Notes: a model not told the origin generated them from the letters alone. Counted from the first letter of the stretch, positions 143 through 62,435 are shown. The stretch: 64,000 bases of DNA from Malacoraja senta (GCA_038087875.1 CM075988.1:24740001-24804000), one strand, 5' to 3'. Numbers and translations are program-made.

Positions 143-275
143 TGTGTAGGAAGGAACTGCAGATGCTGGTTAAAACCAAAGCTAGACACAAAAAAGCTGG
201 AGTAACTCAGCGGGTGAGGCAGCATCCCTGGAGAAAAGGAATAGGTGACATTTCGGATTGAAGCTCTTCTTCAGA
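143..275 (-). mobile_element. Penelope terminal-repeat-derived short cassette with degenerate hammerhead core
   Basis: Reverse complement reads TCTGAAGAAGAGCTTCAATCCGAAATGTCACC...GATGCTGCCTCACCCGCTGAGTTACTCCAGC...CAGCATCTGCAGTTCCTTCCTACACA, matching the other copies in the window. Confidence 0.8.
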
Positions 276-964
276 TCTGACGGTCACTTATTGGAGAAGG
301 TCACTTATATAGGCTTCTCATGTCACCAGGCTAACTCTGATCGGATAAGAGCAGTTGAAAGAGTTATGACCGCATTGGAAAGACATAGTCCACCTGAATA
401 TGATGTGACTATATTTATGAAAGCTGTGGAAAAATTAAGAATTCATACACTAGCTTCTTGGGGCACAAAGCTAATACATCTTGCATCAAATGCTAAGCGA
501 ATTTACTGTGAATCCAGATCCAATGCAGTTAAAGTTTAGGTAGAGGAAGAGGTAAGCGATCCCTTGGTGATTTAGAGTATTAGTCTATATGACACAGAAC
601 AAGTAGGCAACATGCAGATTAAATTTCTCCATTCTCACTTTAAACCCATGCCCTCTAGTTCTAGACTTCCCTGCCCTTGGAAAAATATTCTGACTACATA
701 AGAAGGTAGAAATTAGCCATCCTTTTATTTCAGTACAACTATCACATTGAATACAGATCTTACAGCGAAATGCTATAGTACTTTATGAAAAGCCATGAAG
801 AGTATAGAGAACAAGCTTATGTTCCTCAGGTGATAGAATAGTCACTGTAGACACTGCAGAAAATACCTGGAACCACACAAAAAGCTTGGTTGGAAACAAA
901 TGTACAAATACACATTACGTAGATGGACAGGTTCGGACTTGGGTCTGAATAATGGCATGAAACT

Positions 965-1120
965 ATTTTATTGAAGATGATATTCTTGATTAGGAAGGGG
1001 ATCAAAGGTAACTGGGAGAAGGCAGGAGAATTGGGTTGAGAAGGAAACAGATCAGCCATGAGTGAATAGTGGAGTAGACTCGATGGGTTGAATGGGCTAA
1101 TTCTGCTCCTATGCCTTATA
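965..1120 (+). mobile_element. CR1 LINE 3' end fragment
   Basis: GGGAGAAGGCAGGAGAATTGGGTTGAG...ATCAGCCATGA...GAATGGGCTAATTCTGCTCCTAT resembles the 3' end of the CR1 at 34310-34415. Confidence 0.7.
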
Positions 1121-2357
1121 GTATTAAGCGTCCACCAATCTGAGTTGTATAGAATGATAACACTGGGTATATTACCAAAGGAATTGCAAAGGAAGATCAG
1201 GGAAGAATTTCATGCAGAATACTTTAGGTATAATAGTTATGTAGACAGTGATTCAAATATTTGTCCACTGGCCTGGCATTGACAAATGTATAGAAGAACA
1301 AGCCTGCTGAAACAAAGTAGGCCAGGGATGTTGGATGTGATTCCGTATGCACCATTGAGGGCATGGGTCTGGCTTGCAAGATAATTTGTGCTAATATTGT
1401 GGTAAAAAGGAGAAAAACGTACTGTATTAATTGACAACCATTGAAAATGTCTCGACATATGTGGTGTTGTATCTTATCAAGGAAGGCACGGTAGAGAAAT
1501 TAAGATCTATCTTAGCCACATATGAAGAAGTTTGTTTCAGATAATGATTCATAATTTAGATTATTCATCTTGAATGATTCATGAAGAGCAATGGAATTAA
1601 ATGTTGCTGCTTACAATTCAGTGCAAATTGGGAAGCAGAAAGATTATTTTATGTGGCAAAAGAGGCATTGCAAAAGGAAGTTATGGAATGAACTTTGCTA
1701 TGCAACATCAATTTGCAGCAGTTTTTCAGCAATGGGACAATGCCATACTCCACAGCAGGCGGCACTCCTGCAGAACTGCTTATGAACAGAAGGATGAGAG
1801 ACTGTGATTGAATCTCATCCAAACCAATTTGTAAGGGAAGTGGAGAATAGGGAATGAAAACGAAGAAGGCATCATAACACAAGTTGCACAGCAAGGAGAT
1901 CCAGCCTGCACAATAGAGTTCATGTCGTGAGACCTGTTAGCAGGTCGAAATGAGGTGTTAGTGGTGATATACAGTTTGAATTGTCATGAACGTTGGAAAT
2001 ATATGGACTTTTATGTATGTATATGTTGATCAGCTAATCCAAATAAACAATTCCCAACAATAGCAAAGAATACAGCTCAAATGCCTTTCTGAAGAGAATA
2101 CAACTATCATTCAGGAGTAATTTGTTTGATATTCCTACTGAGAGAGAGTTGAGACAATGTTGTGAAGTCCAGTAATACTCCATAAAACGTGGAAAACCAA
2201 CACCGTCCAGAATTAACATCTTGATTACATCTTAATTTGTGAAATAATACTAGTTTTATGCAGTTCATGGTAATTGTGAATGCCTAATTATCATTTGAGA
2301 TAAAATAGGCCGGGATACCATTTTTTAAATGCACTAGGAATTTGGAAAGTGTGGTGA

Positions 2358-3206
2358 TGTAGTAGAGGTTTTACAGTAAGGCAATTTCAATCATGCTGTG
2401 ATGGAAGAGATTACACAGGTCTTGGAGAAAGATACAATGTCCACAAGACTTCTGCTGTTAACCAAACTGCTAAGTAATTTGAACTGGGCTTACATTGAGC
2501 AAAATCTATCGAGGGAAGATTGTTTTTGCTATGTGATGATGAGATAAGGAAGCTAAAGATCGGATGTTTCCTCACGTCTGAATGCACCGACGTCAGCTCA
2601 GTACATTCTAGTTCGGGCGCAACAAGAAAGTTGGAATTGTGATGGCTGACTTGTAAGCAATGGAAACCATCTGGACGAAAGGTCAGAGATGATCACTTCC
2701 TAACTTCAAAGATGTCAGCTGAGAGAAGAAAGTGTAAGATCCACGGGGAGCTATATTAAGAGTTCTGAGATGTAATAGTAGGGCAAAAAGGAAGAAATAA
2801 GTTTTAAATGTTCCTGGTTGCTATTGTTGGTTATGTGATACTTGGGAATATTTTGGTATCATTTCAATTACTGCAAGACCTTATGGATATATCAGTTTAT
2901 GTTAGTTTAAGTTTTATAAATTATGTTTGGTAATTTATGTGATATTTTGCAGTCGTCTTTGGTATGGGGTTTGAGATTTGTTACATGTTACATGTGAAGT
3001 CCATTGAAGAAGCCATTATTGGGTTTATGCGTACCAGAGGCACATCTGTTGAATTGTTAAGGTTACATTGTAAACTTATAATATAGCTATATAAATAGTT
3101 GAGAGGAATAAAAAAAAAGATTTATGTTTAGGCTGATATATCTTGGTTGCCTCTGTTTATATGTTTCTGTAAATCATTAAATACTTGTATAATTTTATAT
3201 ATTACA
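2358..3206 (+). mobile_element. Candidate 3' LTR of the Gypsy remnant
   Basis: Purine-rich tract (GGAAAGTGTGGTGA) then TGTAGTA at 2358; a near-inverted TATTACA ends at 3206; AATAAA near 3107; lies downstream of the integrase remnant. No second LTR is in the window to confirm it. Confidence 0.35.
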
Positions 3207-3769
3207 TGTAAATCGTTGATTGGTCAAATTATGTAATATATTTAATATATTAATATATCATTTAATATATATAGACAGATATTACTTCTGAGGGTTTGTT
3301 ATATTTCATTTGAAACATAAAACATTGCTGTCTATTTGGTATGTGTACAATTTTAGAATTATGTACAACATGTTTTTTTTTAAATATTTTGTATCAGCTG
3401 CTAAAATTTGGGAAAGGTTTTATACTTTCATTGTCAAAGTTCTCTTGAACATTTTTGATCTACATTTAATAGAAAAGCATTCATGTACTTTCCGTTCAGC
3501 ATAACCGCAGAGGCTGCTGGCAGCATCCAGAAATACTGTTACAAAATAGCATTTGTGAATTTGTTGCTCTGGTCAAATTGACACTACCAATCTGAACACT
3601 GAGGCAGAGATCTGATTGTACCTTTCAATGGGTGCAATATTGGATCTGATGTTGAGGTTCAAATTGACTAATTCCCTTTGCTGCTGCTTGGAGTGAATGT
3701 TGTTCAAGATTTAACATCCAATTAAAACAAACTGATAGGATAGAAGCAGGCTATTCAGCCCATCTGTTG

Positions 3770-3880: not shown

Positions 3881-3956
3881 CCCATCTGTTGCTGGTGTTG
3901 GTGCTTCTTCTTTAAAGGAACCAATTCACGACCTGCTCTTTCGAACACATCCTTCT

Positions 3957-3988
3957 GTCTGAAGAAGGGTTTCGGCCCGAAACGTTGC
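3957..3988 (+). ncRNA. Minimal type I hammerhead ribozyme motif (best-preserved copy)
   Basis: GT-CTGAAGA(3959-3965)-A-GGGT/TTCG/GCCC (stem II with UUCG loop)-GAAA(3979-3982)-C-GTT-GC. The upstream GT can pair with the downstream GC (helix I). Predicted cleavage is after 3986. Activity is untested. Confidence 0.7.
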
Positions 3989-4054
3989 CTATTTCCTTCG
4001 CTCCATAGATGCTGCTGCACCCGCTGAGTTTCTCCAGCATTTTTGTGTACCTTC
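3957..4054 (+). mobile_element. Penelope terminal-repeat-derived short cassette
   Basis: Hammerhead core followed by the family body ATAGATGCTGCTGCACCCGCTGAGTTTCTCCAGCATTTTTGTG. Confidence 0.85.
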
Positions 4055-4554: not shown

Positions 4555-5537
4555 TAACCCGCAAACATCTTGAGAAGAGGCATTCAATTAATCTCAGACA
4601 TCTACATGTACTTGTAGATCTGCAGACTTTCCATTATAATGTCCTTCTGAAGTTTGCTGTTCGGTTTCTGCCACCACCCTCTCATGCAGTGCATTCCAGA
4701 TCACAACTCACTGCATAAAAACAAGTCTCTTCATGATCCCTCCATCAGGTACCAATTACTTCAAGTTATTGTTCTCTTGCCTGCCCTGCCACCAGAAGCA
4801 GATCCTCCAATTCAAATGATTGGATAAATTAATATTGAACCAATGAATTCCAATAAAAACAATTACTTGTTATAACTGCCAATGAAAACGATCACTTTTA
4901 AATTAAATTCTTTAAAACTTATTTCAGTAGTTTTAATTAATAAAAAAACAATATTTTGGAGACTGCCAGTTTGAGAATATCATACCTGAAAAGATGATAT
5001 TTTTAAGTTCCCTCAGATTTAAAAGTTGCTGCTGAATTAGCTGCACATGACAACGATTTTAATGTTGGTTTCAAAAACATATTTAACTATATGAAATTGT
5101 ATACATGCCAGCGGACTGCAGTGAATTTCAGTGGTAATGGCTTGGTGTTGAGTATTATGTTTCAGCTGAAACTTTAAGTGAAAGGCTTGATCTGAAAGGT
5201 TTTAAATATGTTTGCACTTAAACCTGAGGTTTGGGTTATTGAACAAAACCTTTTACTCTTGCAAGGCACAGTATTACATGTTGGGAAACACCACCCTGCA
5301 CATGTGTAGCCAACAGAAGGAAGAAAGGTCCCCAGTCTATTGTCCACCCGACAACTCCCAGCGTCTGGAATGCCCGTTCTATAACTCTGCACCTCCCTCA
5401 CTACCCCCTTGAAACCAGCATCACTTCGGATCATCCGGCCAAACATCACTTAATACGGATCATTATATATTATCCTGGTCATAGACGAATGGTACCAAAG
5501 ATTCAGCAGAATGATACCACCTAAGTTATGAGGAAGA

Positions 5538-5607
5538 TAGACATAAAATGCTGGAATAGCTCAGCGGGACAGGCAACATCTCTGGAGAGAAGGAATGGGT
5601 GACGTTG
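5538..5607 (-). mobile_element. Penelope terminal-repeat-derived cassette, truncated
   Basis: AAATGCTGGAATAGCTCAGCGGGACAGGCAACATCTCTGGAGAGAAGGAATGGGTGACGTT matches the family on the minus strand. Confidence 0.75.
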
Positions 5608-5609
5608 GC

Positions 5610-15447: not shown

Positions 15448-16692
15448 TAAATGAAGCAATATTCAGTTCAGTTGAGTTTATCGTTCAGTTTAGTTTATTG
15501 TCACGTGTACCGAGGTACAGTTAAAAGCTTTTGTTGCGTGGTTCCAATGTGGTTCCCTCGAAGAGCGTGGAATAGTAGATCTAATCTTTTCAGCAAGACA
15601 GCTCCAAGAGAAATGCCTTTTTTATTGCCTTCTTTTCAAACTTGGATGTAGATCATACAATCTTTAAAATTTAACAACTGTCAAGCTCACCAACTCCAAC
15701 ACTATTTTTAAAACTAATATTTAGTTCCTTCCATTCCTCATTCTCATTAGATCTCAGATTCTCTCATACATTTGGCAGTCTGTATGTGTCTATTCCATGA
15801 CACTAGATGCAAAGTAATGGTTTAATTCCTCTGCCATTTCTTTCATCCCCATTATATATTACCTGTCTTTAATTGTAAGGGCTCCACATTTGCCCTCACA
15901 TCCATTCCTTTTTACATAAGTATAGAAGCTCTCACAGTTAAAAAAAAAATTCTTACTAGTTTACACTCATATTCTTTTTACTTTTCTTTTTCACTTTTTT
16001 GACCCTCTTTTACTGAAATCTAAAATCTGTCAATCGTAGCTGGACACCATACCACTTCCACCCAGTGTAATTGACTTAACTGCTTCCCTTTCACAGCTCA
16101 GTGGCAATTTAGGGATAGTATATAAAAGGCAGGATTGCCAGTGGCATTTGAATCCCTGTGAAAAACTCAAAAAGGAACATCTCTTTCATGAAGTATGGGG
16201 ATTCCCCATCGTTAGCTGCCCTTGAGAAGCTGATGGTAAGCTTTCTTGAACTGCTGGGCAGCACACGTGGTAAAATAGTGCTGTTAGATAAAAGCTGCTA
16301 GCATCCTGACCAAGCAAGGATGAATGAACCGCTGATAACTGTTCAAATGGCAGTTCAAGTGTCTTACATAATATGTCAACATCAAACATGTGCAGGGCAT
16401 TGCTGCTCAGTACAATGTCAAGCAAGCGATCTCTGCTCCATTTAAACAACCTGTCTCTGCACGGAGGAGCATTTTGAACAGTGGCTGCCTCTTAGACATT
16501 ACGGAACTGAATTAAGGCAGTATTGTATTGTGGCCCTATTTGCTAAAAACTGGGTCTAAATTGCTCCAACAGTTGCCAGTCACATTCCCAGAGGATTCAT
16601 CAATAACGATCTTCCCCTAACTAACACATTTGTACCATTGGTTAGTTACTCAACGCAAAGCTCATGGCTCCACGGCTTTCCTCCAACATCAT

Positions 16693-17065
16693 CTCATATT
16701 TCGCTTGGGCAGCTTACAACCCAGTGGTATGAATATTTGATATCTCTAACTTCAAGTCTCCCTTGTATCTCCCCAATCTCCATCCCTCCCCCACCCGCTT
16801 CAGTCGTCTTGTTGAGTCTCATTGTCCATACTAGTTTCTTTTCACCTAGGCCACAGCTAACAATGGCCTGTTTCCTTCATCATCATTACTTTCTTGCATA
16901 TCTTTTATTCATTTGTTCTATATATCTCTATATCACCGCCTATATCTCTTGTTTCCCTTTCCCCTGACTCTCAGTCTGAAGAAGGGTCTCAACCCGAAAT
17001 GTCACCCATTCCTTTTCTTGAGAGATGTTGTTTGACCCGCTGAATGACACCAACTTTTTGTACCT
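16693..17065 (+). mobile_element. Penelope-like element 3' end (GIY-YIG C-terminus, 3' UTR, hammerhead-bearing terminal repeat)
   Basis: LIFRLGSLQPSGMNI at ~16693-16737 matches the C-terminus at 49540-49610; a pyrimidine-rich UTR follows, then GTCTGAAGAAGGGTCTCAACCCGAAATGTCAC at ~16974-17005. Confidence 0.8.
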
Positions 17066-18017
17066 AATCATTTGGTAATCAGCTTTCTTTTCTTTTCATC
17101 AATTACTCACAAATTCAAGTAATCCACGAAACTGGTAAAACAGCTGACCATAATTTGTTTTAATTTCTGCAATGAGATTTCTCCTGTTTAATTTTTGCTT
17201 CCACCAATGCCCAAAGATGAATTTTTAATTCCAGGGGATCTGGAGAGTTGTTAACTTTGCTCCAAAACAGATTGCATCAGATTCTTACATTCAGCAACTA
17301 GAAACTAGGTTTTGTTTAATCCTGGCTATACCTGAATGCAGGTCCAAAAGGTGAAAAACGAGGATGTTTCTACTTTCTCCATGGAGATAAAAATATACCC
17401 GACTTAATCTGGTGAGTGCACTTCAGCATTCTTTGATGTAAAACTCTCTGTCATCTTTTATTTAAAGAGGATTTAAGAGTTCATCCCAAAACCTGCTTTC
17501 TTTTAAATAATGAAACCTAGATTCCTTTGGTCTCTTAAGTAGACTGTGCAGTGTAGACAGGTATTTTTAATATTAGTTGATCCACAGGGAACCGCATTGA
17601 ATACTGTGGACAGTTATAGACTCTGTGTGTTATATAAAATTCTGTCTATTGGGTCACACCTAAAATTAATCCAAGCAGTTCTGGAAGTTTTCCAGAACCC
17701 TGCAGGATTTGATTCCCATTAACACTCGGTTTAACTTCGCTGTTAAATGATTACCATGATGTTTTAATGAAGAAAATACCTTTCAATGCTGAACGTTTTT
17801 CAGCGTGGTGAGCAATTTTTGCTTTTGTTTAACCTTACAGTGTTGCCACTGCTGGCAACTAGATTTGTCCTCTTTTTTTCTGGCGGTTCGGATTTCTCTC
17901 ACACTTCAATCGAGGCTGCCGTTCGCTTCCCTCCTTTCCCAAAGATAGTCAAAGGAAAAGAGAGAACTTCTGTTTCCATATCCTCGTTTGCCACCGCAGG
18001 CCATTATAGTGAATAAA

Positions 18018-19364: not shown

Positions 19365-19870
19365 GACGTGTTTGGCCCATATCCCTCTCAACTTTTCCAA
19401 TCTACGTACCTGTCTTAATATCTTTTAAATGTTGTTTCAATTTTTTACAAGCTCTATCGTATTGTTCTATCGTGTCTTATCGAGAGTACCTGCCTCAACT
19501 ACCCCCTCGGTCTGAAGAAGGGTCTCTCCCATTCCTTCTCTCCAGAGATGCTGCCTGACCCGCTGAATTACTCCAGCATTTTGTGCCTACCCCCTCTGGC
19601 AGCTCGTTCCATATACCTACCACCCTTGTGTGGAAAAAGTTGCCCAGCAGGTTCCTATTAAATCTTTCCCTTCTCGACTTAATCTCTATCCTCTGGTTCT
19701 TGATTCTCATACTCTGGGTAAAAGACTCATTTACCATTTGCATTTACTGTATCTATTTGTCTTGTGATCTTCCACACCTCTAAAAGATCACCCCTCATCC
19801 TCCTGCGTTCCAAGGAATAAAGTCCTAGCCTGTTCAACGCCGACCTATAGCTCAGGCCCTCGAGTTCTGA
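19365..19870 (-). mobile_element. CR1 3' fragment hosting a Penelope-derived cassette
   Basis: ORF 19495-19743 contains GNFFHTRVVGIWNELP. Confidence 0.75.
19509..19586 (+). mobile_element. Penelope terminal-repeat-derived cassette (hammerhead internally deleted) with TSD
   Basis: Starts GGTCTGAAGAAGGGTCTC; 10-bp TSD CTACCCCCTC at 19499-19508 and 19587-19596. Confidence 0.85.
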
Positions 19871-21745: not shown

Positions 21746-22390
21746 AATTCAGAATAGCACAGTAAGGAAATGGGCATTTCAATCAATTGTGCCAACACCT
21801 GTAAACAAAAGCAAAGTTTAAAAAAAAACTACAGATGCTAGAACTCCAAAATAGAATAGAAACTGCAGGATAAATATCAATAGGGTCTGGCAGCATCTGT
21901 GGAGAAATCTTGATTCAGGTTCTTCCTCTACATGGGTTAATCTCTCCATTGACGTGATATTCTCCTTTGTTTTGCAGATTATATAAATAATTTATCAATC
22001 GGCATCATGCATACTCTTGGCCCATATGTAGAATTTCTTTCCAGCCTCTCATGTTGCCATCCAAAGTACTTACAACAAAGGTTGTAAGTATCATTCTACC
22101 TATCCTGCACTCCACTCTTTTACTTCCATCCGATGGCCATTGAACATTTCCAACCTTGCTTTGTGCAGCTCACAACTTTTAATTGCATGTGAATAAGCAT
22201 TCAAATCAGTTAGTTACATTGTCACCTGTTTAATCAACCTAGCCTAATTTGTCTCCTACAAGTTGGTGGTCATGTGAACATAAAGATCACAAAGTATGCT
22301 GCTCAGTATAAACATCCATTTTAATTGTTTACTATAACAACCTTCCGTGAACCTCTTTTGTTCTGCTTTATAAAACATCATATAATAAAA

Positions 22391-22632
22391 TGTTTAAGAA
22401 AGAACTGCAGATACTGGAAAAATCAAAGGGAGACAAAAATGCTGGAGAACCTCAGCGGGTGAGGCAGCATCTATGGAGAGAAGGAATGGGCAATGTTTCA
22501 GGTCGAGACCCTTCTTCAGACCTGAAATGTCGCCCATTCCTTCTCTCCATAGATGCTGCCTCACCCACTGAGTACTCCAGCATTTTGTGTCCACCTTCGA
22601 TTTTACCAGCATCTGCAGTTCTTACTTACACA
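22391..22632. mobile_element. Fold-back (inverted pair) of the Penelope terminal-repeat cassette
   Basis: Arms 22391-22504 and 22519-22632 are diverged reverse complements around a 14-nt centre; the minus strand reads GTCTGAAGAAGGGTCTCGACCTGAAACATTG. Confidence 0.9.
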
Positions 22633-37254: not shown

Positions 37255-38509
37255 TAGCTTAATGATTATCTGTTTTAGACCCATGCTGTTCCATATGACT
37301 ATTCTTAAAGAACATCTGGTTTTCTAATTAGCTTCAAAACAAACTGTGGAAGAAGGAAAAATAATCACCCCGTATTAGTGATTATTAAAGAAAAGCATAC
37401 TTGGTGTTTAACTGAATGTTCACTACAGTTGAATAGTGCACGAGATCTTATTGCTTTGGAATGACCATTTCAAGTATAAAATCATGAGAGGAATAGATCG
37501 GGTAAATGCACAGAGTCTCTTGCCCAGAGTAGGTGAATCGAGGACCAGAGAAAAAGAGAAAGAAAAGCCAAAGTTTGCTGGTTAAAAAAACTTGACCAGT
37601 TCACATTAAGAAATGCAACCAATGCAAAACTAAAGATAAACAGACATGTAAGTGGAGCCCCATGGAGTTTACATAATCCAGTCAGCCCAGTCTAATAAAA
37701 CCATTAAAAAAAATCAAATAAAGCACAGTGTTCCATAGTCAAGGAATAGAAGCGAAAAGCAGAGAAGTTATGTTAAACTCAGACTAACCCCTGGTTAGAC
37801 CACACTTGGAGTTCTGTGTCGTGGTTGATTTCCATTTTATAATAAATAATATAGAGGCTCTCGAAATGTGTTAAAATGATTGATAAGAATGTTACCAAAA
37901 TCATTATGTTATATCAGGAAAGATTGAAAAAAGAGAATGTTCAGGGGTGATCCCTCAAAGAAATCTTTAAGATTATGAAAAGAAGTGATGAAAAAAACAT
38001 TGAGAAAAATTTTCCAGTGGTGGAAGAGACTGGAATTAGGGACCTTGATTAAATTAGGACCCCAGAAGAACTCTACTCTCCTTCAAATTAGTACCATTCT
38101 ATTGTTAAAGGCAACTGAACCATCCGACACAACAAGAGAGCAGTCCTGTAACCTCCCAAGGAATTAGTCAGAGAGATGAGCAGAGATGAGCCAAGGTTAA
38201 TACTTCTATTTGTTTCTTTCTGTTGAGTGTGTAGTGTTTGTGAGTTAAATACAGTGACCAAAGGAGGAGGCGGTGGGGCAGGGGCTTGCCGACTAAGTCA
38301 ACAGTTTACGATTGACATTTATGTTTACTTACTGTGTGGGATCCTTTATTGCTTCATGTATTCTGGCTTCAATTTCTAGGATTTTAGGATTCCAGATACT
38401 TCAAGTTCTTGGATTTGTCCTTTAAATGTGGTCCAGTCACTAAACACTGACTACACTGTAGCATGTCAATGAGGTAACCGAAGCATATACAACAACACAC
38501 CAGATAGTC

Positions 38510-38573
38510 AGTCTGTAGAAAGGTCTCAACCCGAAACGTCACCCCTCCTTCTCTCCAAAGAGGCTGCTGAGTT
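38510..38573 (+). mobile_element. Penelope-derived cassette fragment
   Basis: GTCTGTAGAAAGGTCTCAACCCGAAACGTCACCC. Confidence 0.7.
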
Positions 38574-38864
38574 GTTGTCTAACAGTCTGGATATATCATT
38601 TAATTTAGCAGATAACCAGGGATTGGGTCCAATCTGTGGTGCAGTATTTTCTAATCAATGTACATCAGTGTTATATACTTAACTTCTGACAAAGGAAAAA
38701 GCAAACTTGCCTTGAAATTTTGCATCTGTTAGCACCATAATAAGTGAATTTGCCCAGTGCGATTCACTCAATTATTACTTTCAGCAGTATCAGGCATAAC
38801 TCAGTAGTTAGTCTGAACAATTTTTAATTCCACACAATGGACTTGAGTAAGAAGTCCATCCTGA

Positions 38865-39317: not shown

Positions 39318-39324
39318 TAAATCC

Positions 39325-43326: not shown

Positions 43327-44026
43327 TTCATTTTAGGAAGGAATCTAGATCTCAGTGAACCGTACAAAGGATTTCTTATTCTGGCACCAGGAATAAAAGG
43401 CTTAATAAAATGAAAGCCTAAAAGCCTAAGAGTCTGGAGAACTTGGGGGTGTTCTCTTCAGAGTCAGAATCGTAAAAGGAGATTTGATTAAAGTGGGCAA
43501 TATTGTAAAGTGCCTTGACAGTATGAATAAGATTATTTCTTTCCCAACAGCAGAAGAGTTGGTAACAAGAAAACACAAATCCAAGGCTATCGACGAAAGT
43601 ACTGCAGCTAACAGACATTTTTTTTAAATTCAGTGCTTTAATATCTTGAATGCACTGGCTGAAGAAGTGAAGATAGCAAATTTAATATTGTTTTTTTTAA
43701 ATGAATTGGATAAAAATTTGAAGGGGAAAATTGAGTCCCTAAAATTTGTCTCTAAAATGAATCAAATAAAACAACTATAAAATCTGCCAGATTTTTACAA
43801 ATATTCAACCAATTCAAACTGTTCAACACAGATATGCCATGCACAGAACACTGCCATCACTTCTTGTTCTAGCCTGTAAGTGAGCAAAGTCCTACATGTT
43901 GTGAATGAATCTCAGCACATTTCAGTTCAACTAATTTGTTAACTAATGAGCCTGGTTTACATTGACTAGGCTCATATTCTCTCGAGCTTCAAAGGGAAAG
44001 GAGTGTGCAGGCAGTGTATAGACTTG

Positions 44027-44111
44027 AGTCTGAAGAAGGATCTCGACCTGAAACGTCACCCATTCCTTCTCTCCAGAGATGCTGACTGTCCCGCTGAGTT
44101 ATTCCAGCATT
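44027..44111 (+). mobile_element. Penelope-derived cassette
   Basis: GTCTGAAGAAGGATCTCGACCTGAAACGTCACCCATTCC...CCCGCTGAGTTATTCCAGCAT. Confidence 0.85.
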
Positions 44112-44354
44112 CCAGAATACATCAAAGGTAAAGGAGTGATCCAATTAACATGATTAACAGATTTGATAGAGGTTTAGGGGCATAGCGACTCAAATGTGAT
44201 GAGAATTGGGCAGAAAAGAGGAGTTGAAGCCAAGATTAATCAGCAATGATATTATTGAATGGTGGAGCTGGCTTGAGGAGACTTATAGCCTCGTGGATTT
44301 CTTTGATTCAGATGTTCTTATGATGTAACAGATCTTAGGAACTACTTCCTCTGC

Positions 44355-47535: not shown

Positions 47536-48089
47536 AGCAGGTCTATCTGCTGCAACACTCTCACCTCACTGCATGTTGAGGGATCTTTCCCCTCTCCAAC
47601 TGAATCAGACAGCATGGTTTCATGAACAGTCACAAATGTTGCCAGCCCCTGGCAGAGCCTACATGGAGCAATGTGCATCTATGTGTGGTAGTGTTATGAT
47701 CTCTTGTAAACTTTGGTAATAGAGTCTGAAAAATATAAGGGGAATAGAGTTTTGACAAGAGATGAGACTAGGTGTTTTATCGTTGATAAGGTGAAAGTTA
47801 TAAATATCAATTTTTTGATGGGGTATCTTCCTTCAAACTAATCCAAACTTGTACACTGGCAGTTGCTGTCTAACCAGATATAGAAAAGCTTCAGTAACAA
47901 AAGTGAAAATCTTAACATGAGATATCATTGACCTGAAATATTAATTCTGTGTCTTTCTCACAGACGGTCCAAAATGTTGAGTGTCTCCAGCATTTTCTGT
48001 TTTATTTCAGATTTCCTGAATCTGGGCTATACCATTGTATTGTAGTATTAAAGTGCAAAATAATCCAAATTTCTGCCACAACATTTTAA

Positions 48090-48270
48090 GTAGAAACCAG
48101 GAACTGCAAATGCAAGGAATACAAAAAAAGACTAAAAGTACTGGAGTAATTCGGTGGGTCAACTGGAGAACGCGGATAGGTGACATCCTGACCTGTAACA
48201 TCAAATATTCATGCTCTCCAAAGATGCTGCCTGACCCACTGAGTTATTACAGTACTTTGTGTCTTTTTTG
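48090..48270. mobile_element. Diverged fold-back of the Penelope-derived cassette
   Basis: Left arm AAAAGTACTGGAGTAATTCGGTGGGTCA is the inverse of right arm TGACCCACTGAGTTATTACAGTACTTT. Confidence 0.75.
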
Positions 48271-48480
48271 GCATAATGTTTACCGTTACAATTAACAGGC
48301 TAATATTATAAATGGTATGCGGTTATGCTGCCAATACATAAAAACCTTCGGTGTGTGTACAATTGTGGGCTCTGGAACTTAGAAAGGATATGTTAGGAAG
48401 GAGTAGCTTGCAGATTTATCAGTTTATATTACCGGAACTCCAAATGTTCCAGTAATAAACTAGTAAGTAGATTCTAAGGC

Positions 48481-48614
48481 AGTCTGAAGAAAGGTTCCAA
48501 CCCGAAATGTCACCCATCCGTTTTCTCTAGAGATGCTGCCTGACCCGCTGAGTTACCCCAGCACTTTATGTCTATTTTCAGTATAAACCAACATCTGCAG
48601 TTGCTTCATACACA
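48481..48614 (+). mobile_element. Penelope-derived cassette with probable TSD
   Basis: Starts AGTCTGAAGAAAGG, ends CATACACA; flanks AGTAGATTCTAAGG (48466-48479) and AGTAGATTATGAGG (48614-48627), 12/14. Confidence 0.8.
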
Positions 48615-49224: not shown

Positions 49225-49975
49225 CCAGCCACTCCCACTTATCCCCTCTCCCATCAGGCAAAAGGTACAGAAGTGTAAAAAAGCACACCTTCAGATTCAG
49301 TGTTTGAGAGGGAACTGCAGATGCTGGAACAATGGAAGGTAGACCCTAATGCTGGAGAAACTCAGCGGGTGAGGCAGCATCTATGGAGCGAAGGAATGGG
49401 TGACGTTTTGGGTCGAGACCCTTCTTCAGACTGATGAGGGGATGGGGGAGGGGGTGGGAAGAAGAAAGGAAGAGGCGGAGACAGTGGGCTGTGGGAGAGC
49501 TGGGAAGGGGAGGGGAAAGAGGGAGAAAGCAAGAACTACCTGAAATTGGAGAAGTCAATGTTCATACCGCTGGGATGTAAACTACACAAGCGAAATATGA
49601 GGTGCTGCTCCTCCAATTTACGGTGGGACTCACTCTGGCCATGGAGGAGGCCCAGGACAGAAAGGTCGGATTCGGAATGGGAGGGGGAGTTGAAGTGCTG
49701 AGCCACCGGGAGATCAGGTTGGTTATTGCGAACTGAGCGGAGGTGTTGGGCGAAGCAATCGCCAAGCCTACGATGTAGAGTAGCTGACACCTAGAGCAGC
49801 GGATGCAATAGATGAGGTTGGAGGAGGTGCAGATTCAGGGACAGTTTCTTCCCAGCTGTTATCAGGAAACTGAACATTCCTACCACAACTAGAGAGCAGT
49901 CCTGAACTACTATCAACCTCATTGGAGACCATGGACTATAGTTGATTGATCTTTACTGGCTTTATCTTGCAATAT
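49225..49975 (+). mobile_element. Rex1/Babar-like LINE 3' fragment (host of the Penelope insertion)
   Basis: Joined across the insert it translates PLPSGKRYRSVKKHTFRFRDSFFPAVIRKLN, a Rex1-type C-terminal motif. Confidence 0.75.
49301..49829 (-). mobile_element. 5'-truncated Penelope-like element: GIY-YIG endonuclease remnant plus hammerhead-bearing terminal repeat
   Basis: Minus strand reads TSSNLIYCIRCSRCQLLYI(deletion)RLGDCFAQHLRSV...RKLEEQHLIFRLCSLHPSGMNIDFSNFR*, then UTR and GTCTGAAGAAGGGTCTCGACCCAAAACGTCAC; 9-bp TSD CAGATTCAG at 49292-49300 and 49830-49838. Confidence 0.9.
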
Positions 49976-49982
49976 TCACACA

Positions 49983-50305: not shown

Positions 50306-50341
<36 letters not shown>

Positions 50342-50942: not shown

Positions 50943-50944
50943 AA

Positions 50945-53881: not shown

Positions 53882-53897
53882 GCAAAATCATTTCACA

Positions 53898-54113
53898 AGA
53901 TAGGCACAACATGCTGGAGTAACTCAGCGGGTTACGCAGCATCTCTGGAGACAAGGAATAGGTGATGTTTTGGGTTGGACCCCTTCTGAGGAAATCTGTC
54001 AACCCGAAACGTCACCTATTCCTTTTCTCCAGAGATGCTGCCTGACCCACTAATTTATTCTGGCATTTTGTGTCTATCTTTGGTATAAACCAGTATCTGC
54101 AGTTCCTTCCTAC
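53898..54113. mobile_element. Fold-back Penelope-derived cassette
   Basis: Arms ~53898-53978 and ~54001-54078 are inverted; the right arm continues to the family 3' end CTGCAGTTCCTTCCTAC. Confidence 0.85.
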
Positions 54114-54247
54114 CATTAAACATTTCACACTTCTTCGTTATGTTAACTTTCATCTGCCCATTTCACCAGCCCAGTCTCCTCTGAAATCTATATCTATCAT
54201 CATATTCTTCATCACACTTCTGCGATCAGTGTCATTTACAGTCCTGC

Positions 54248-54400
54248 GGTAGACACAAAATGCTGGAGTAACTCAGCGTGACAGAGACCCTTAACGTCAC
54301 CCATTCCTTCTCTCCAGAGATGCTGCCTGTCCCGCTGAGTGACTCCAGCATTTTGTGCCTATCTTCGATTTAAACCAGCATCTGCGGTACTTTCCTCCAC
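54248..54400. mobile_element. Fold-back Penelope-derived cassette with internal deletion
   Basis: AGACACAAAATGCTGGAGTAACTCAGCG versus CGCTGAGTGACTCCAGCATTTTGTGCCT. Confidence 0.8.
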
Positions 54401-54820: not shown

Positions 54821-55146
54821 AAAGTTAGAGGAAGGGTTTAGGGTTCTGTGAATGTTGGTCATTTGTGTTACTACTAGGGCAGTACAATAGGATACGAATA
54901 CATCGCTGGAGGAGCTCAGGGGATCAGGCAGCATCTGCGGAGATGAAATGGACAGCTGAGGTTTTGGATCAGGGGCCTTTTTCAAATATATGAATAACTT
55001 GTGCATTCTCCCATTGACTTAATCAGCAATAGGAGAATTCAGCACCTATCCCTCTGACCTCTCTCTCTCTCTCTTGAGTGTTTGAAGATTCCTCTTCTTC
55101 CCCCAGTTCTGGTCATTTCATGTGAAGGATTTTCACTTCACTATCA

Positions 55147-55252
55147 GACACAAAAAGCTGGAGTAAATTAGTGGGTCAGACAGCATCTCTGGAGAAAAGG
55201 AATAGGTGATGTTTCAGGTGGAGACCCTTCCTCAGACTGGGTTCTTCAGACT
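55147..55252 (-). mobile_element. Penelope-derived cassette
   Basis: AAAAGCTGGAGTAA...GGAATAGGTGATGTTTCAGGTGGAGACCCTTCCTCAGACT. Confidence 0.8.
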
Positions 55253-56644
55253 AATTTCACTATTAATGGCTTCATATTCATTTTCTGTGATCCTACAGTG
55301 TCGTCCCCCCCCACCTTGCCCTATTCTCGCTTCTCCCCCCCTCCCCCACCCCCCTTCCTCTCATCACCCCTTATTCTGCCACCCATTTTAGCACCCCACC
55401 TCAGTTGGTAAACTAAAGAAGACATAGATAATGTAGCAGAGATTAGCATTCCCCTTTTTACAATGAGCATTTTTTATGAATACATTGGACTGGCTTTTCA
55501 TATTTTCGTAACGTTCGTTGTACATGTGGTGCAGGATGTTGGATAAAATGGGTCATGTGTAAGGAAGAGCTAGTACTCTTGAGCCCTGACCCAAAAAGCC
55601 ACCAATCCATGTTCTTCGATGTCTTTGTCTGACCCGTTGAGTTACTCCAGCATTTTTCTTTTGCTCTTGAACCGAGCTACGCATGCATCGATATATGCAG
55701 GAAAAGAGAGGAATAAAAATGAAGGGGACAAGAAAAATGAAACTTTCTGGATTAAACACATCTTTATGGGTTTGGCAACATCTCATGATTTTATTCTTTG
55801 TATTTCTGCTTTTCAGAGAATCTAAACTGGGCCTTTCCTTTAGTTTTTACCTCCAATTCTCTCTTAAGATGACATGATTCCATAACATTTAACGGTAAAT
55901 AGGTCAGTTTAAAAGTCAGATAAGAAGCTCTTGCAGTGTTTCACTGGAGTGCGCGAAACCTTTGTGCAGAAATAAATCAATGGTTTCTTCCTCGTGAGCC
56001 TTGACTTTATTGGGCTATAATGTACTATCTTAATTTGTCATACTGAGGATGGAGAGTTGCAACATACTTTTCCCTGCATATGGACTACTGACATTTTAAA
56101 GAGTCCAGTGTCCCATATTTTATGATCTGTGGATTAAATATATATTGCACTGCACAGACTTGCTTATAGAATCCAATAATCTCAATTTGATGTTCATATA
56201 AAAGGATTTAGTGAGTGCTGTTAAACCCTTCTCGAGATACATAAATGCAGACGTGCCGGGCTTATTCTGAAGAGAAGAAATAAAAGAAGACTTTCAAGTG
56301 CATCCTTCAAGTGGAAAGCGTCTGAGCCTTATTGATTTTGTATTTATAGATGTGCAAATGTGGATTTGTCTTCTCTTTCTTTTCCCCCCAAAAGGACGAT
56401 CAAGGTTGAGTCTTAACAGCGAGATACGATTCACAGGAGGAATGCTAATGAAGCATTAAATGGGAATGTTTGTAACACAGAGCAGACAAAAAAGAGGAAA
56501 AAGCATTAGCACTGCACAATGGAAACTGGAAGTTGAAGTTTTGCAAAACAGGATCACTAGCATTATTGTGAATAAAAGATGCGTTGAGGCACTTGGCTGA
56601 TACCGAACGCTTTGATGCATCTTGTCCATGAGTAACTTTGTAGA

Positions 56645-56868: not shown

Positions 56869-57142
56869 AGTGCTGGCCACGCTTTGTAATCTTGAAATTA
56901 TTATCTTCATGTTTATATCCTTCCATGGCCTTACTCCTTTTGTTCTGAAACCTCCAGAAACTGAGTAACATTGAAGTTCTGTGACTCTGGCCTTGTCCAC
57001 TCCAATATTCATTGCTTTACTGTTGTCCTCCTGGCTTTAACCGGTTAGACCCTAAGCTTCTGCGATCTCTTCCCACGTCCTTCCAATGCTTCAACTCTTT
57101 TAAGACAATACCGTGCACCTACCTGTCTAATCATAATGCTGT

Positions 57143-57252
57143 TCAAGAAGGAACTGCAGATGCTGGAAAAAAGAAGGGTTTCGGCCCGAAACGTTGCCTA
57201 TTTCCTTCGCTCCATAGATGCTGCCGCACCCGCTGAGATTCTCCAGCAATTT
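57143..57252 (+). mobile_element. Penelope-derived cassette with short inverted end piece and 19-bp TSD
   Basis: TGTCTAATCATAATGCTGT (57124-57142) and TGTCTAATCGTAATGCTGT (57253-57271); same UUCG-loop subfamily as 3957-4054. Confidence 0.85.
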
Positions 57253-58911
57253 TGTCTAATCGTAATGCTGTCTTGGTGACATTTCTTTCTGAGTGAATTC
57301 CTTGTCATGCTTTTCTACATTTAATGCTCAATATGACTAATTTTTTTAAATATATCTCAGTCTCCTGAAAAACTTTAGTGTGTGCATTCAAATCACTCTA
57401 GCTTTATTTCACTGTTAACGAGAACAACAAGTGGGTCCTTTACCAATAAAGTATATAACCACACCTCCCTTTTATACCAGTAAATATGAAGGTAAAATGG
57501 GATGCTTTGTATAGTTTTAGTGATTCTTGCACAATGTGATAACTGCATTGAAGAGGGTAATTCCTGGTACAGTAGGGTTGTTTAATGAAGAGAGAATGCA
57601 GCTGGATTTTCCAAAAAGTAGAAGAATGGTGAGTTTTTTGGGGGCTATATCTAAGGGTCACTATGTCTAAAAATGTAGTTGTCCATTTAGGACAGTGTTG
57701 AGAACAAAAATCTTGATTCCAAGAGCTGTGAACCTGTTGAATTATCTGCCTCAGAGGGACATAAATGCTTGGTTATTACATTCATGCTTCAAATCAGATA
57801 ACATTAGGATACTGTAAAATGTGGATTGATTGGGATAGTGTTGTTGATGCAAACTTTCTGTCACAATGTTCCTGAAGAGTAGTGTTGGCTCAAGTGGGGT
57901 TATAGCCCAGTTTAGCATTTCAGAAATTCCCTTGAAATGCAGAGCGCCATCTGATGGAAAAGAATGAATAACATGGAAAAAGTGCAATTGTGGCTGCTGC
58001 CTGGCATAGATTGGGTAGATAAGGGGAAGAAAGGTCCAATCGAGTAATGAAACCCAAGGGATTACAGTAAGATGTGGATGTTACAAAGGTTCCTGCTTGT
58101 CCACATGGTGAAACAAACAAATCCATCGCGGCTTTGGCTCTCTTCATTTTTCTAAATTGTTTCCTGCTTGCCATCCTGTGAACTGCAGTTTTGCTCAACT
58201 CCCCCTTCAATGTACATCTGGGAACAGAAATCTAGAAATGATGGTCTGATTCATATCTCAATGACCCACGAGAGCAAACGAGGATATAATCTGAGTTGCT
58301 TAGATGAAGAACTTGGTTAATTGATTTACACATGAGCAACTCTAAATTAGAATTTACGTTTAAAAAATGAACTGGGATTCAGTCAAAGACTACCACCAAT
58401 GTGTCGACATGAAGCAATCATTAAACATGTTGCATTTATGTCTTTTCATAGTAGCTTGCCCAAACTTGGGAACTGCAAAGTTTACAGATTTTATTGCATA
58501 TATATGCTTCAACAAAAGAAATTTGTCATTTATGGTAGTTTCAGGAATGAGCATGCTTTTTCGACATGAATCTTGGCTGTTGAAGTTCCTTGGACAAACA
58601 AAGAGTCAGACTGAAAGAATACAAGAATGCATTGACGATAGAATAGTGGTTCTTCACCAAGAAAAAGTACAGTCCAATGTGGCAAGTTGTAGGTCTCTTC
58701 ATTCTACTCATGCAAGAGGCCACTGGAATATTTTTGGATAATCACACCCTAATTGTCTGGTCTCTTTGGAAGCAACTTTCAGCAGTCTTGGGATTGCAGG
58801 TTGAAGCTTCTTGTTCACCCAATCCTCTGTTGACACTGTGTATATGATGTAAAGAAAGTGGATTTTATTGCCGCGTGTAATTATACCTTGATCTTTTTGA
58901 TCATGGAAGTC

Positions 58912-59180: not shown

Positions 59181-59182
59181 AA

Positions 59183-60537: not shown

Positions 60538-60678
60538 CAAGATTTGCAAGAAGCTGACAGGAGCCAAATGGCCTTCTGTACTGTAATAATCCTTAAACTC
60601 AATCCAGCAATGTAAAATCATATTATTTAAAAGAAGCACTGAGGGGCTGCATTGAAGATAATATGTAATTGTTGTTTA

Positions 60679-60747
60679 GAAAAGGAATAGGTGACGTTTC
60701 AGGTCGAGACGTCTTCAGACTGAGAGTCGGGGGAAAGGGAACCAAGA
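60679..60747 (-). mobile_element. Penelope-derived cassette fragment
   Basis: AAGGAATAGGTGACGTTTCAGGTCGAGACGTCTTCAGACTGAGAGTC. Confidence 0.75.
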
Positions 60748-61680
60748 AGCAAAATCGTTGTTTATTCGACTATAAAGGACCTCCTGCCACTATCTAGATA
60801 GGATAATGCATTCTCACTGGTCTACTGATCAATCCTTGCCACTCACTGAGATAACTAAAAACATTCTACCTGGTCTTTATCTCATTGGTTTTAATAATAA
60901 TTTACTATGAACAAATAGGTGCAACTCTTGCCTCATTAGAATGGTTATGAAACTTCAAACATATTTAATTGACTGTTAAGAACTCCAGGTTTTTGCTTTC
61001 AGTACAGGCCGAATTTGCATGGTTTCAATATCCAATTGACTAAAACATATTCAGGATCGAGACAATTGGAAAAAAAATTGAAATATAATTTGCATTTAAA
61101 GTTTATCCTTTTTTTTTTGTTTCATTGAAAGCTGATTTCATAAGTGCATTTTTGGCTATCAATCTGAGTTTTGATTGATGTACTTCTGAACTTTCTAGTC
61201 CATCCTTGATGTTACATACTGATGCCACTTTTATTCTGAGGAAGGCAGATTGAAGCAACACGAAGGAATTGACTTGTGACTTGAAGGAAGTGCAAGAAAA
61301 TCCTGACTACAAAGGAACGTTTTACTTCATTCAGAGTCAACAAGACAACCCATGGGGTTATAGAAATTAGCTCTTATTCTGAAAGAATAAAAAAAAGTGA
61401 CATTACTGAGTGTTTGAATTAATATCAGCTAAGGTACTGAATGGTGAACTGATAATGATATTTGCTGTATAATGTGCATGAAAGTGAAATTAGTGGTGGA
61501 AGCATTAAAAGCAGGTTATTTCAATATATAGAGAGTTCAGGAATACATTGGCACAGAAACCTAATTAATAAAATTAAGTCAAGATGCAAAGTTTCTAAAC
61601 TTTTTGAAAGGCATGTGAAATGAAAAAGCAGAGATTGATTTCTGAGTTAGCAGTTCTGATAAGAGATGTACTGAAGTACT

Positions 61681-61814
61681 TGTGTAGGAAGGAACTGCAG
61701 ATGCTGGTTTAAACCGAAGATAGACACAAAATGCTGGAGTAACTCAGCGGGACAGGCAGCATCTCTGGAGAGAAGGAATGGGTGGCATTTCGGGTCGAGA
61801 CCCTTCTTCAGACT
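61681..61814 (-). mobile_element. Full-length Penelope-derived cassette with 16-bp TSD
   Basis: ACTGAAGTACTTGTGT (61670-61685) and ACTGGAGTACTTGTGT (61812-61827); runs from GTCTGAAGAAGGG to CCTTCCTACACA. Confidence 0.9.
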
Positions 61815-62342
61815 GGAGTACTTGTGTTTCCTGTGATACTGTGGAGAGAATTGAGTTTTATTAAATGGAGTTTAAGAAACGAGCTTCAGTTGGTCTAAAT
61901 ACCTGATGTATTCCCGGACTTTGCTTGTATTGATGCTTCAAAGACAATAAAAGTTAGTATTTAAGAACATAAGAAACAGTGGTAGGCCAATCAGACCCAC
62001 CATTCGGTAAGGTGATGGCTGATTCCATTCTATGGCACAGTCCCATTCTCTCCCTATATCCCTTCTCTCCCTTCAAAGTCCAAACGTTTGTTAAAGGTGT
62101 CAGTCCTCCATTTGCCTGTACTCTAGTCTGTGTTTGGTTTTCCCAGTGATGATGGGGCCACGGTGTGGGCACTGGTTGTAATGCACCAAGATGGAAAAGA
62201 AGGAAGTGCATTGCCGCTTCACCTGAGAGAGTTATTTGGATATTGGGAAGTGATGAATCAAAAGAGCTTATTGAATTCCCTGTAAATGCATGGGAAAACT
62301 TTGAAGCTTGATGATAGACATAAAGTAGGAAATATTCATCCA

Positions 62343-62435
62343 AAAGGACACCAAGTGTTGGAGTAACTCAGCGGGTCAGGCAGCATCTCTGAAGAACATG
62401 GATAGGTGACATTTCGAGTCAGGACCCTTCTTCAG
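62343..62435 (-). mobile_element. Penelope-derived cassette
   Basis: GGAGTAACTCAGCGGGTCAGGCAGCATCTCT...GGTGACATTTCGAGTCAGGACCCTTCTTCAG. Confidence 0.8.

What the first reader, a model, noticed from the sequence alone, without database searches (positions are those of the whole stretch)
143..62435. Dense family of ~25 hammerhead-bearing mini-elements derived from a Penelope-like terminal repeat
Seen: a ~130-bp unit (GT-CTGAAGA-A-GGGT-N4-RCCC-GAAAC-GTH-RC...GATGCTGCC..CCCGCTGAGT.ACTCCAGCA...CTGCAGTTCCTTC.TACACA) recurs roughly every 2.5 kb on both strands, counting older diverged copies. The same unit terminates two GIY-YIG-coding Penelope remnants (16693-17065, 49301-49829). Established: Penelope-like elements carry minimal type I hammerheads in their terminal repeats, with a palindromic ACGT helix III thought to work as dimers. 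Inference: here the ribozyme cassette has amplified on its own as a non-autonomous, retrozyme/SINE-like element. Two subfamilies keep the pairing (CTCG loop with GTC|AC; TTCG loop with GTT|GC), which argues for structural constraint.
Basis: partly seen in the sequence, partly recalled or inferred. Interest (0 to 1): 0.8.

Follow-up and report, generated by a model that had tools for sequence, protein, structure and literature searches.

The report
Skate Penelope ends with decaying hammerheads
These short repeats in a skate-type fish genome are the ends of known Penelope-like jumping genes, each with a tiny and usually mutated self-cutting-RNA motif; they are likely short copying by-products of those elements rather than a new ribozyme-driven element, and their fixed end points hint at how such elements copy themselves.

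Summary
The repeat is real: 32 hits (16 per strand) in 64 kb, forming 26 insertion events, and none in a reversed control. The unit is the terminal repeat (pLTR) of endonuclease-positive Penelope-like elements (PLEs) of a skate and carries a minimal type I hammerhead. It shows the published PLE marks: two 3' ends about 35 nt apart (the tail), five inverted pairs and target-site duplications. Public skate runs give over 400,000 contigs on one copy. The 5' ends pile up at the ribozyme's first bases (13 of 21 unpaired events), never at its cut site. The retrozyme reading fails. Head-to-tail joints are rare, 1 of 18 cores is fully intact, catalytic G12 decays like any CpG, and the two named subfamilies differ only by wobble changes. 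Three solo subfamilies have a counterpart still attached to upstream PLE sequence. Best reading: run-off copies made by PLE proteins from the uncleaved front of their own RNA, decaying after insertion. A self-amplifying mini-element is not excluded (about 20%). Solo minimal hammerheads from truncated PLEs were described in 2014. This scan has noted the same thing in several other shark and skate windows.

The parts
143..278 (-). solo unit, long tail; helix II disrupted
3955..4054 (+). solo unit, short 3' end, TTCG subfamily; the only copy with core and helices I-III intact (core starts 3959)
5534..5606 (-). unit truncated inside the ribozyme, short 3' end, 12-bp TSD with 1 mismatch
16686..17068 (+). 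PLE 3' remnant A: last codons of GIY-YIG (16684-16760), 3' UTR with TATA-like motif about 30 nt before the ribozyme, unit 16972-17068 with short end
19508..19591 (+). solo unit with 13-nt internal deletion, 10-12 bp TSD, one non-target G at the 5' junction
21819..21907 (-). old diverged fragment
   Evidence: E 2e-6
22389..22633 (.). head-to-head inverted pair, both arms with long tail, arms 94% alike and each other's nearest copy; folds as a hairpin of -173 kcal/mol
31069..31156 (-). old copy with CTGATGA core and U-A/U-A helix I; the only two-sided change in the pair count
36075..36237 (+). unit of the CCTG-loop subfamily with about 30 nt of upstream PLE UTR, long tail
36979..37251 (+). older solo unit interrupted by the next entry
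37020..37154 (-). solo unit, long tail, inserted antisense into an older copy; 19-bp TSD with 1 mismatch
38509..38600 (+). degraded solo unit
44025..44112 (+). solo unit cut at its 3' side; G before AGTCTG
47929..48022 (+). old diverged fragment
   Evidence: E 0.002
48095..48271 (.). inverted pair, long plus short end, CCTG-loop subfamily
48480..48614 (+). solo unit, long tail, TSD (10 bp by script; 14 bp with 2 mismatches by eye)
49301..49829 (-). PLE 3' remnant B: frameshifted GIY-YIG C-terminus (about 49539-49829), 3' UTR, unit 49301-49433 with long tail and G12 lost; 9-11 bp TSD
53897..54114 (.). inverted pair, short plus long end, 12-bp TSD with 1 mismatch
54250..54398 (.). inverted pair, short plus long end, both arms lack the core
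54895..54987 (-). old degraded unit
55144..55239 (-). solo unit, short end, with a partial duplicate of its first bases just upstream
55582..55660 (+). degraded unit without core
57140..57258 (.). inverted insertion: tail only (minus, 57140-57171) joined to a short-end TTCG unit (plus); 19-bp TSD with 1 mismatch
60678..60765 (-). unit with about 45 nt of remnant-A-type UTR, cut at its 3' side
61681..61815 (-). solo unit nearest the family majority, long tail, 16-bp TSD with 1 mismatch including junction microhomology
62341..62437 (-). solo unit, short end, CCTG-loop subfamily

Best explanation
These units are the hammerhead-bearing terminal repeats of several skate Penelope-like retrotransposon families, likely pasted in by the elements' own protein as short copies that start at one of two internal priming sites and likely run off the uncleaved front end of the element's RNA, and they then decay like unselected DNA. 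Shown: PLE origin, two fixed 3' ends, a fixed 5' edge two to four bases before the CTGA core, TSDs, inverted pairs, and decay of the core at the CpG rate. Inferred from the anole PLE work (PMC11167929): the protein cuts both DNA strands and primes reverse transcription inside the RNA about 100 and 135 nt downstream of the ribozyme start. Priming on both strands would give the head-to-head pairs, often with a tail on one arm only. Inferred and weaker: the 5' edge is the transcription start (TCAGTCT fits the recalled initiator consensus YYANWYY), so priming in the upstream repeat gives a solo unit and priming in the downstream repeat gives a truncated ORF-bearing copy. The ribozyme is likely constrained only in the parent elements and is not used to make these copies.
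For: The same unit ends two GIY-YIG remnants, 65-81% identical to skate and ray PLE proteins. 3' ends: 15 of 32 hits end at model columns 127-134 (one is an overrun by eye), 12 at 93-108, 5 elsewhere. In the runs laid on this copy, loose ends with unrelated flanks (agreement 0.34-0.40) pile at 61681 and 61716 in all four, and at 61717-61718 in the two contig runs. 5' ends: 13 of 21 unpaired events start at columns 1-3, 4 run on into PLE UTR, 4 start further in, and 0 of 32 hits start at the cut site. On remnant B, loose ends with unrelated flanks (agreement 0.31-0.40) pile at 49431-49432, and depth over the unit is 3.9-8.1 times that over the GIY-YIG end. TSD scores of 10 or more in 6 of 22 events, against 0 of 291 random intervals. 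In 4 of 5 inverted insertions one arm has the long end and one the short. Private substitutions 4/221 in the core against 41/1680 downstream, p 0.81; all substitutions 8/221 against 253/1680, p 2e-7. G12>A in 15-25% of laid sequence against 10-17% at a non-core CpG. Three solo subfamilies have a UTR-attached counterpart in the window.
Against: No transcription start was mapped, and no pile-up of RNA ends was reported in either lay. A TATA-like motif sits about 30 nt upstream in remnant A only, not in remnant B or the 36106 copy. A cap-type extra G is seen at 1 of 5 junctions where a TSD fixes the boundary (19508), and possibly at 44025. In reads it shows only as the plurality first letter of loose ends. 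No full-length parent lies in the window and no genome was held. The TTCG subfamily (3955, 57171) has no UTR-attached partner in the window. The UTR differs between subfamilies, which exaggerates the depth step just upstream of the ribozyme (14-84 fold), and contig depth is no copy number. Only 1 of the 4 inverted pairs tested has arms that are mutual nearest neighbours.
Confidence: 0.6

Rival explanations
1. Some subfamilies are true non-autonomous mini-elements: solo copies keep an internal promoter and the priming sites, are transcribed again and are re-copied by PLE protein, like a SINE.
For: Solo units outnumber ORF ends 4-8 fold and have sharp ends and TSDs. They match 0.3-0.5% of RNA reads. 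The TTCG pair is a supported clade (97/93) without a UTR-attached member in the window. D. virilis Penelope has an internal promoter (PMC2377424, passages).
Against: Three solo subfamilies mirror UTR-attached repeats, so at least three families independently leave the same stub. Copies decay without selection. The RNA reads are unstranded or of unknown direction, and 84-95% run on into unlike sequence, as expected for host transcripts.
Confidence: 0.2
2. All copies are primed at the 3' end of full-length RNA and are ordinary 5' truncations, with a strong stop at the ribozyme's first helix or at the pyrimidine-tract/CAG splice-acceptor-like site just before it.
For: Heavy 5' truncation is typical of PLEs (PMC8557442, PMC8969392, passages). 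The 4 UTR-bearing copies have a pyrimidine tract then CAG or CAA before the core. In D. virilis an intron ends at the 5' end of helix I (PMC4209133).
Against: Helix I is only 2-3 bp and the hammerhead is not the predicted stable fold, so a structural block is unlikely. Loose ends at the 5' edge share no upstream exon (agreement 0.31-0.40).
Confidence: 0.15
3. The unit is a non-LTR retrozyme: tandem copies self-cleave as dimers, circularise, and one round of reverse transcription around the circle gives a unit-length monomer.
For: Exact unit-length head-to-tail joints exist in DNA: 135 contigs in X1 and 107 in X5 among the joints listed. Retrozymes are proposed to derive from PLE pLTRs (bioRxiv 10.64898/2026.07.22.740005).
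Against: No tandem among 26 window events. The 135 and 107 contigs stand against 6,996 and 8,420 loose 3' ends (counts incomplete). There are three junction forms, not one, and only 4 and 5 RNA reads carry them. The hammerhead is the minimal PLE type, not the canonical type of described retrozymes (PMC7229834, passages). The libraries laid are oligo-dT or single-cell cDNA and would miss circles.
Confidence: 0.05

Closest known systems
Minimal hammerheads (min-HHR) in pLTRs of metazoan PLEs, including solo and opposite-strand copies (Cervera and De la Pena 2014, PMC4209133; parts 1-2 of 4 and part 1 of 3 of supplement 2 read)
   Same: Type I core, extra base between 9 and 10.1, G10.1-C11.1, palindromic 15.2-16.2, short helix I. 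Most motifs occur as single elements ascribed to truncated PLEs, some in opposite-strand pairs; thousands per genome in coelacanth and Xenopus.
   Different: No cartilaginous fish in Table S1, and 0 hits for shark, skate, Callorhinchus or Leucoraja in supplement 2 (file 1 could not be searched). Density here appears far higher. That paper proposes cleaved circular templates, whereas these copies keep the uncleaved 5' half of the ribozyme.
EN+ PLEs of Neptune/Nematis type: pLTR, inverted 5'-truncated copy, 30-40 bp tail (Craig et al. 2021, PMC8557442, passages)
   Same: C-terminal GIY-YIG, tail often on one end only, inverted copies. Ray homologues P0004 and P0005 carry a cysteine motif in the RT-EN linker.
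   Different: Here most insertions are only the terminal 100-135 nt. The clade is inferred from homologues because the window remnants start after the linker.
Poseidon_Ac of the green anole (Frangieh et al. 2024, PMC11167929; parts 1-2 of 4 read)
   Same: Two adjacent internal priming sites that define the tail, both strands cut and extended, uncleaved RNA as template, no RNA-seq ends at the cut site.
   Different: Different clade and host. The parts read do not discuss a fixed 5' edge at the ribozyme start.
Non-LTR retrozymes (PMC7229834, passages; bioRxiv 10.64898/2026.07.22.740005, parts 1-3 of 5 read, supplements not seen)
   Same: Short, non-coding, hammerhead-bearing, PLE-related. Dispersed monomers occur, and the one chondrichthyan sampled has such families (mean consensus 363 bp).
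   Different: Defined by tandem arrays with a ribozyme in each unit, mostly canonical hammerheads and circular RNA. Here the copies are dispersed monomers and inverted pairs with decayed minimal cores.

Membership tests
EN+ Penelope-like element end (pLTR) | follows a C-terminal GIY-YIG ORF | tested here: met
   homologues hit PF01541 weakly (E 5e-4 to 8e-3, below the curated cut-off) while the 78-aa window piece alone hits nothing
EN+ Penelope-like element end (pLTR) | optional 30-40 bp tail (two 3' ends) | tested here: met
   ends at 61681 and 61716-61718
EN+ Penelope-like element end (pLTR) | inverted 5'-truncated partner copies | tested here: met
   5 inverted insertions
EN+ Penelope-like element end (pLTR) | telomerase-like RT in a full-length parent, partial tandem | not testable with these tools
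   no genome held; 0 hits in collection scans
Neptune/Nematis clade | Zn-finger-like linker between RT and EN | tested here: inconclusive
   cysteine motif seen in P0004 and P0005, which are 65-67% identical to the window piece; linker absent from the window; no RT tree built
Minimal type I hammerhead | core CUGANGA...GAAA-UH with helix II and palindromic 15.2-16.2 | tested here: met
   majority line; 84% of cells paired against 12-47% in slid controls; intact in 1 of 18 copies
Minimal type I hammerhead | covariation in helices | tested here: inconclusive
   1 of 8 pairs and 1 cell with a two-sided change; 483 of 500 shuffles reach it; 16 sequences only
Minimal type I hammerhead | self-cleavage as a dimer | not testable with these tools
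   no RNA end pile-ups in libraries unsuited to the test
Non-LTR retrozyme | head-to-tail tandem units, each with a complete ribozyme | tested here: not met
   0 of 26 window events; about 1-2 joints per 100 loose 3' ends in contigs
Non-LTR retrozyme | abundant circular RNA | tested here: inconclusive
   4 and 5 joined reads, joints also in DNA; oligo-dT and single-cell libraries
SINE-like non-autonomous element | own lineage independent of autonomous ends | tested here: inconclusive
   three subfamilies have UTR-attached partners, the TTCG one does not; tree mostly unresolved
SINE-like non-autonomous element | tRNA/5S/7SL-derived Pol III head | tested here: not met
   the unit begins at the hammerhead; no such Rfam hit on any copy

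The most novel reading that the evidence does not exclude
The hammerhead is the first 33 bases of the capped PLE transcript. Skate genomes then hold hundreds of thousands of strong-stop-like run-off copies of that front end, and at least one subfamily (TTCG loop) has become a self-amplifying, Pol II-driven 100-nt retroposon that needs neither cleavage nor a circle.
Probability: 0.2. Interest if true: 0.6.

Novelty: new member of a known kind. Interest (0 to 1): 0.3.

Why it matters
As a family it is ordinary: PLE ends with minimal hammerheads are known from fish, coelacanth, frogs and reptiles. I did not find the skate family described (paper searches; 'Penelope' 0 times in the little skate genome paper's main text). 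Repbase and Dfam could not be checked. The value is mechanistic and practical. PLE insertion is poorly understood, and this very large set of short insertions records both priming sites, two-strand priming and a fixed 5' edge, so the in vitro model from the anole element can be tested at genome scale. The unit takes up 5% of this window, and its inverted pairs can be mistaken for MITEs or microRNA hairpins.

Tried and rejected
Rfam scan: no hammerhead family hit; the microRNA hits at 22451-22573 and 48120-48273 are the inverted pairs. No genome was held, so no genome-wide consensus, lineage test or full-length parent. Pattern scans of metagenome contigs and viral contigs gave 0 matches. Cleaved-RNA template rejected: 0 of 32 hits start after the cut site. 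Inverted pairs as ribozyme dimers rejected by geometry: any transcript holds only one sense core and folds as a long hairpin. Monomer folding: the hammerhead is not the minimum-energy fold of any of 4 sequences, z -1.6 to +0.5. A shared 8-bp stem in long-tail copies shows no two-sided change in 8 sequences. Splice-acceptor idea (pyrimidine tract plus CAG before the core and about 20 nt after the cut site): not supported and not excluded. Loose ends near 61771 are a subfamily variant, and only the top rows were shown. The strand bias in single-cell runs X21 and X22 was not used, since library direction is unknown. Loose ends at 49348 are an artefact of three mismatches in that copy. The position labels were wrong and were redone. 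Of the 24 runs listed, five were laid; the shares of the rest were not used.
Full report
Setting. The window is eukaryotic, with G+C of 35-47% per 2-kb bin and two 96%-identical LINE reverse-transcriptase ORFs. The best homologues of its GIY-YIG piece are from Leucoraja erinacea (81% and 79%) and Rhinoraja longicauda (75%), then rays (65-67%). The host is therefore a skate-type fish (inference). No whole genome was held.

The observation. A profile from 12 near-complete copies finds 32 hits, 16 per strand, 4.9% of the window, and none in the reversed window. They form 26 events: 21 unpaired and 5 inverted. Median identity to the window majority is 84%, range 60-96%. Laid on copy 61664-61843 at 82% likeness, two contig runs give 408,182 and 451,563 records (one on record as probably DNA, one of unrecorded kind). 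Two RNA runs give 64,975 of 12.9 million and 58,808 of 17.6 million reads. The family is therefore very large, although these are not copy numbers.

Origin. Remnant B (49301-49829, minus) holds a frameshifted GIY-YIG C-terminus. It is 65% identical over 78 aa to ray protein P0005, which hits PF01541 weakly, below the cut-off; the window piece alone hits no Pfam family. Remnant A (16686-17068) keeps the last codons of the same domain. In both, a pyrimidine-rich UTR leads to the unit. Two more copies (36106, 60722) keep 30-45 nt of such UTR. Diagnostic letters sort the units into at least three young types, each with a UTR-attached member in the window, plus a TTCG-loop pair without one and a few old copies. 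The tree resolves only 3 of 23 inner branches, so this sorting rests on motifs.

The ribozyme. The majority sequence fits the minimal type I hammerhead of Cervera and De la Pena (PMC4209133): 2-3 bp helix I, CUGAAGA, an extra A, 4-bp helix II, GAAA and a loopless ACGU helix III that can pair only in a dimer. Among 16 aligned copies 84% of cells pair, against 12-47% in slid controls. Only one cell, from the old copy at 31.1 kb, shows a two-sided change, and shuffles reach that in 483 of 500 cases. Across all copies the non-CpG core is far less variable than the downstream part (8/221 against 253/1680, p 2e-7), but private changes are equally frequent (4/221 against 41/1680, p 0.81). I read this as constraint in the source elements and none after insertion; the private-change test has little power. 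G12 lies in a CpG and is changed in 6 of 25 window copies and in 15-25% of laid sequence, against 10-17% at a non-core CpG. Twelve of 18 complete cores keep all 11 core letters, 6 keep ACGT, and 1 is intact throughout.

The ends. 3' ends fall in two groups in the window (15 of 32 hits at columns 127-134, one an overrun by eye; 12 at 93-108; 5 elsewhere). In reads, loose ends with unrelated flanks pile at 61681 and 61716-61718; 34-42% of RNA depth carries the extra piece. This is the PLE tail (PMC8557442, passages), which Frangieh et al. traced to two internal priming sites (PMC11167929). 5' ends: 13 of 21 unpaired events start within three columns of the ribozyme's first base with unrelated upstream flanks, 4 continue into UTR, 4 start further in, and no hit starts after the cut site. 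On remnant B, depth over the unit is 8.1 and 4.9 times that over the GIY-YIG end in RNA runs and 3.9 and 6.5 times in contig runs, and unrelated loose ends pile at 49431-49432. Loose ends at 49434 and 61815 have a UTR-like majority, so a sizeable share of copies does continue into PLE sequence. Six of 22 events tested have TSD scores of 10 or more, a level reached by 0 of 291 random intervals; four more score 8-9, reached by 10 of 291.

Arrangements. There are five inverted insertions with tails outward, four with one long and one short end. At 57140-57258 one arm is the tail alone, as if the two strands were primed at the two sites of one RNA. Arms share subfamily motifs by eye, but are mutual nearest neighbours in only 1 of 4 pairs tested. 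One copy sits antisense inside an older one (37020-37154). Genome-wide, tail-to-tail joints near the short end (421 and 363 contigs among listed joints) outnumber head-to-tail joints (135 and 107), against 6,996 and 8,420 loose 3' ends; the tool says these counts are incomplete. The head-to-tail joints come in three forms, each joining a tail end to (C)AGTCTG. That fits template jumps from a defined RNA 5' end better than one circular master. Only 4 and 5 RNA reads carry them.

Mechanism. Shown: PLE ends, two priming ends, fixed 5' edge, TSDs, inverted pairs, decay. Inferred from PMC11167929: both strands are cut and primed, on uncleaved RNA. Inferred here, more weakly: the fixed edge is the RNA's capped start. 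For this: TCAGTCT fits the recalled initiator consensus; a TATA-like motif lies about 30 nt upstream in remnant A and in one read majority; C, the plus-strand partner of an extra G, is the first letter of the loose-end majority at 49431 in 3 of 4 runs and at 49432 in 2 of the 3 runs listed. Against: no TATA in the other two UTR types, an extra G at only 1 of 5 TSD-defined junctions, and no mapped RNA start. D. virilis Penelope has an internal TATA-less promoter and an intron that ends at helix I (PMC2377424, passages; PMC4209133), which keeps the splice or strong-stop rival alive. I put the PLE-end identity at about 0.9 and the whole mechanism at 0.6.

What is known. Solo and opposite-strand minimal hammerheads from truncated PLEs were described in 2014 for fish, coelacanth and frog. 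Tails and inverted copies are standard PLE features. Retrozymes are defined as tandem arrays, mostly with canonical ribozymes and circular RNA (PMC7229834, passages). A 2026 preprint derives them from pLTRs and finds some in one chondrichthyan; its supplements were not seen and may list this family. Seven paper searches found no description of the skate family. The skate genome paper has no 'Penelope' in its main text, and the whale shark paper lists Penelope only as present. Earlier notes of this scan on other shark and skate DNA reach the same reading. They are not independent evidence; I took the TATA lead and the term 'run-off' from them and tested these only partly.

Verdict. This is a new member of a known kind, interest 0.3. 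The sharp 5' edge is the one point that could teach something about PLE copying.

Noticed in passing
window 41579-41630 (+): Single HDV/CPEB3-type ribozyme fold: Rfam CPEB3 hit of 33.4 bits (gathering 35), E 4.4e-5. By hand: P1 6 bp with a first G.U pair, P2 7 of 7 bp, P3/L3 identical to the CPEB3 consensus, almost no P4. An AAG-rich run near 41745 may be its tail. Earlier notes of this scan describe such heads on Vingi-type mini-retroposons in skates.
   Followed up: partly
window 11078-13615 (-) and 31241-34339 (+): Two young LINE ORF2 copies (endonuclease plus RT), 96% identical over 2.6 kb, the second open for 1,032 codons; CR1-like by recall.
   Followed up: no
window 49429-49432 joined to 49830 in runs X1 and X5: Several contigs join the ribozyme edge directly to the flanking host repeat at the same target site as remnant B, which may mean repeated insertion at one site of that repeat.
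   Followed up: no
window 49395-49432 and 61777-61814 (read joints); 55240-55255: 38-nt tandem duplications of the ribozyme itself (10 and 7 contigs on remnant B), some with one extra base at the joint: natural candidates for a dimeric hammerhead. A partial 5' duplication also lies in the window.
   Followed up: no
window 61716-61724 (read joints): Hundreds of contigs join a long-tail 3' end to the short-end region of another copy on the opposite strand, suggesting that the family targets its own copies.
   Followed up: partly
window 61681-61815 and other long-tail copies: An 8-bp stem joins the middle of the unit to the tail, and a small hairpin lies inside it; candidate protein-binding or priming structure, no two-sided change in 8 copies.
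   Followed up: partly
window 4251-4553, 28477-28626, 43071-43311, 47351-47558, 53602-53719, 56662-56749, 58913-59179, 60244-60485: A second abundant dispersed repeat with a TTTAG/CTAAA-type tail, SINE-like by recall.
   Followed up: no
window 44307-45008 (+) and 15134-15467 (-): Decayed RTE-like reverse-transcriptase fragments, named from recall.
   Followed up: no
window 49985-50945: Long (GT)n/GTCA microsatellite in two blocks next to remnant B.
   Followed up: no
proteins P0001, P0003, P0007, P0014: Public skate and shark gene models in which this PLE endonuclease piece is joined to unrelated domains (an RT fragment, receptor-transporting protein 3-like, neuromedin-U receptor 1); annotation artefacts or exonisation.
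   Followed up: no
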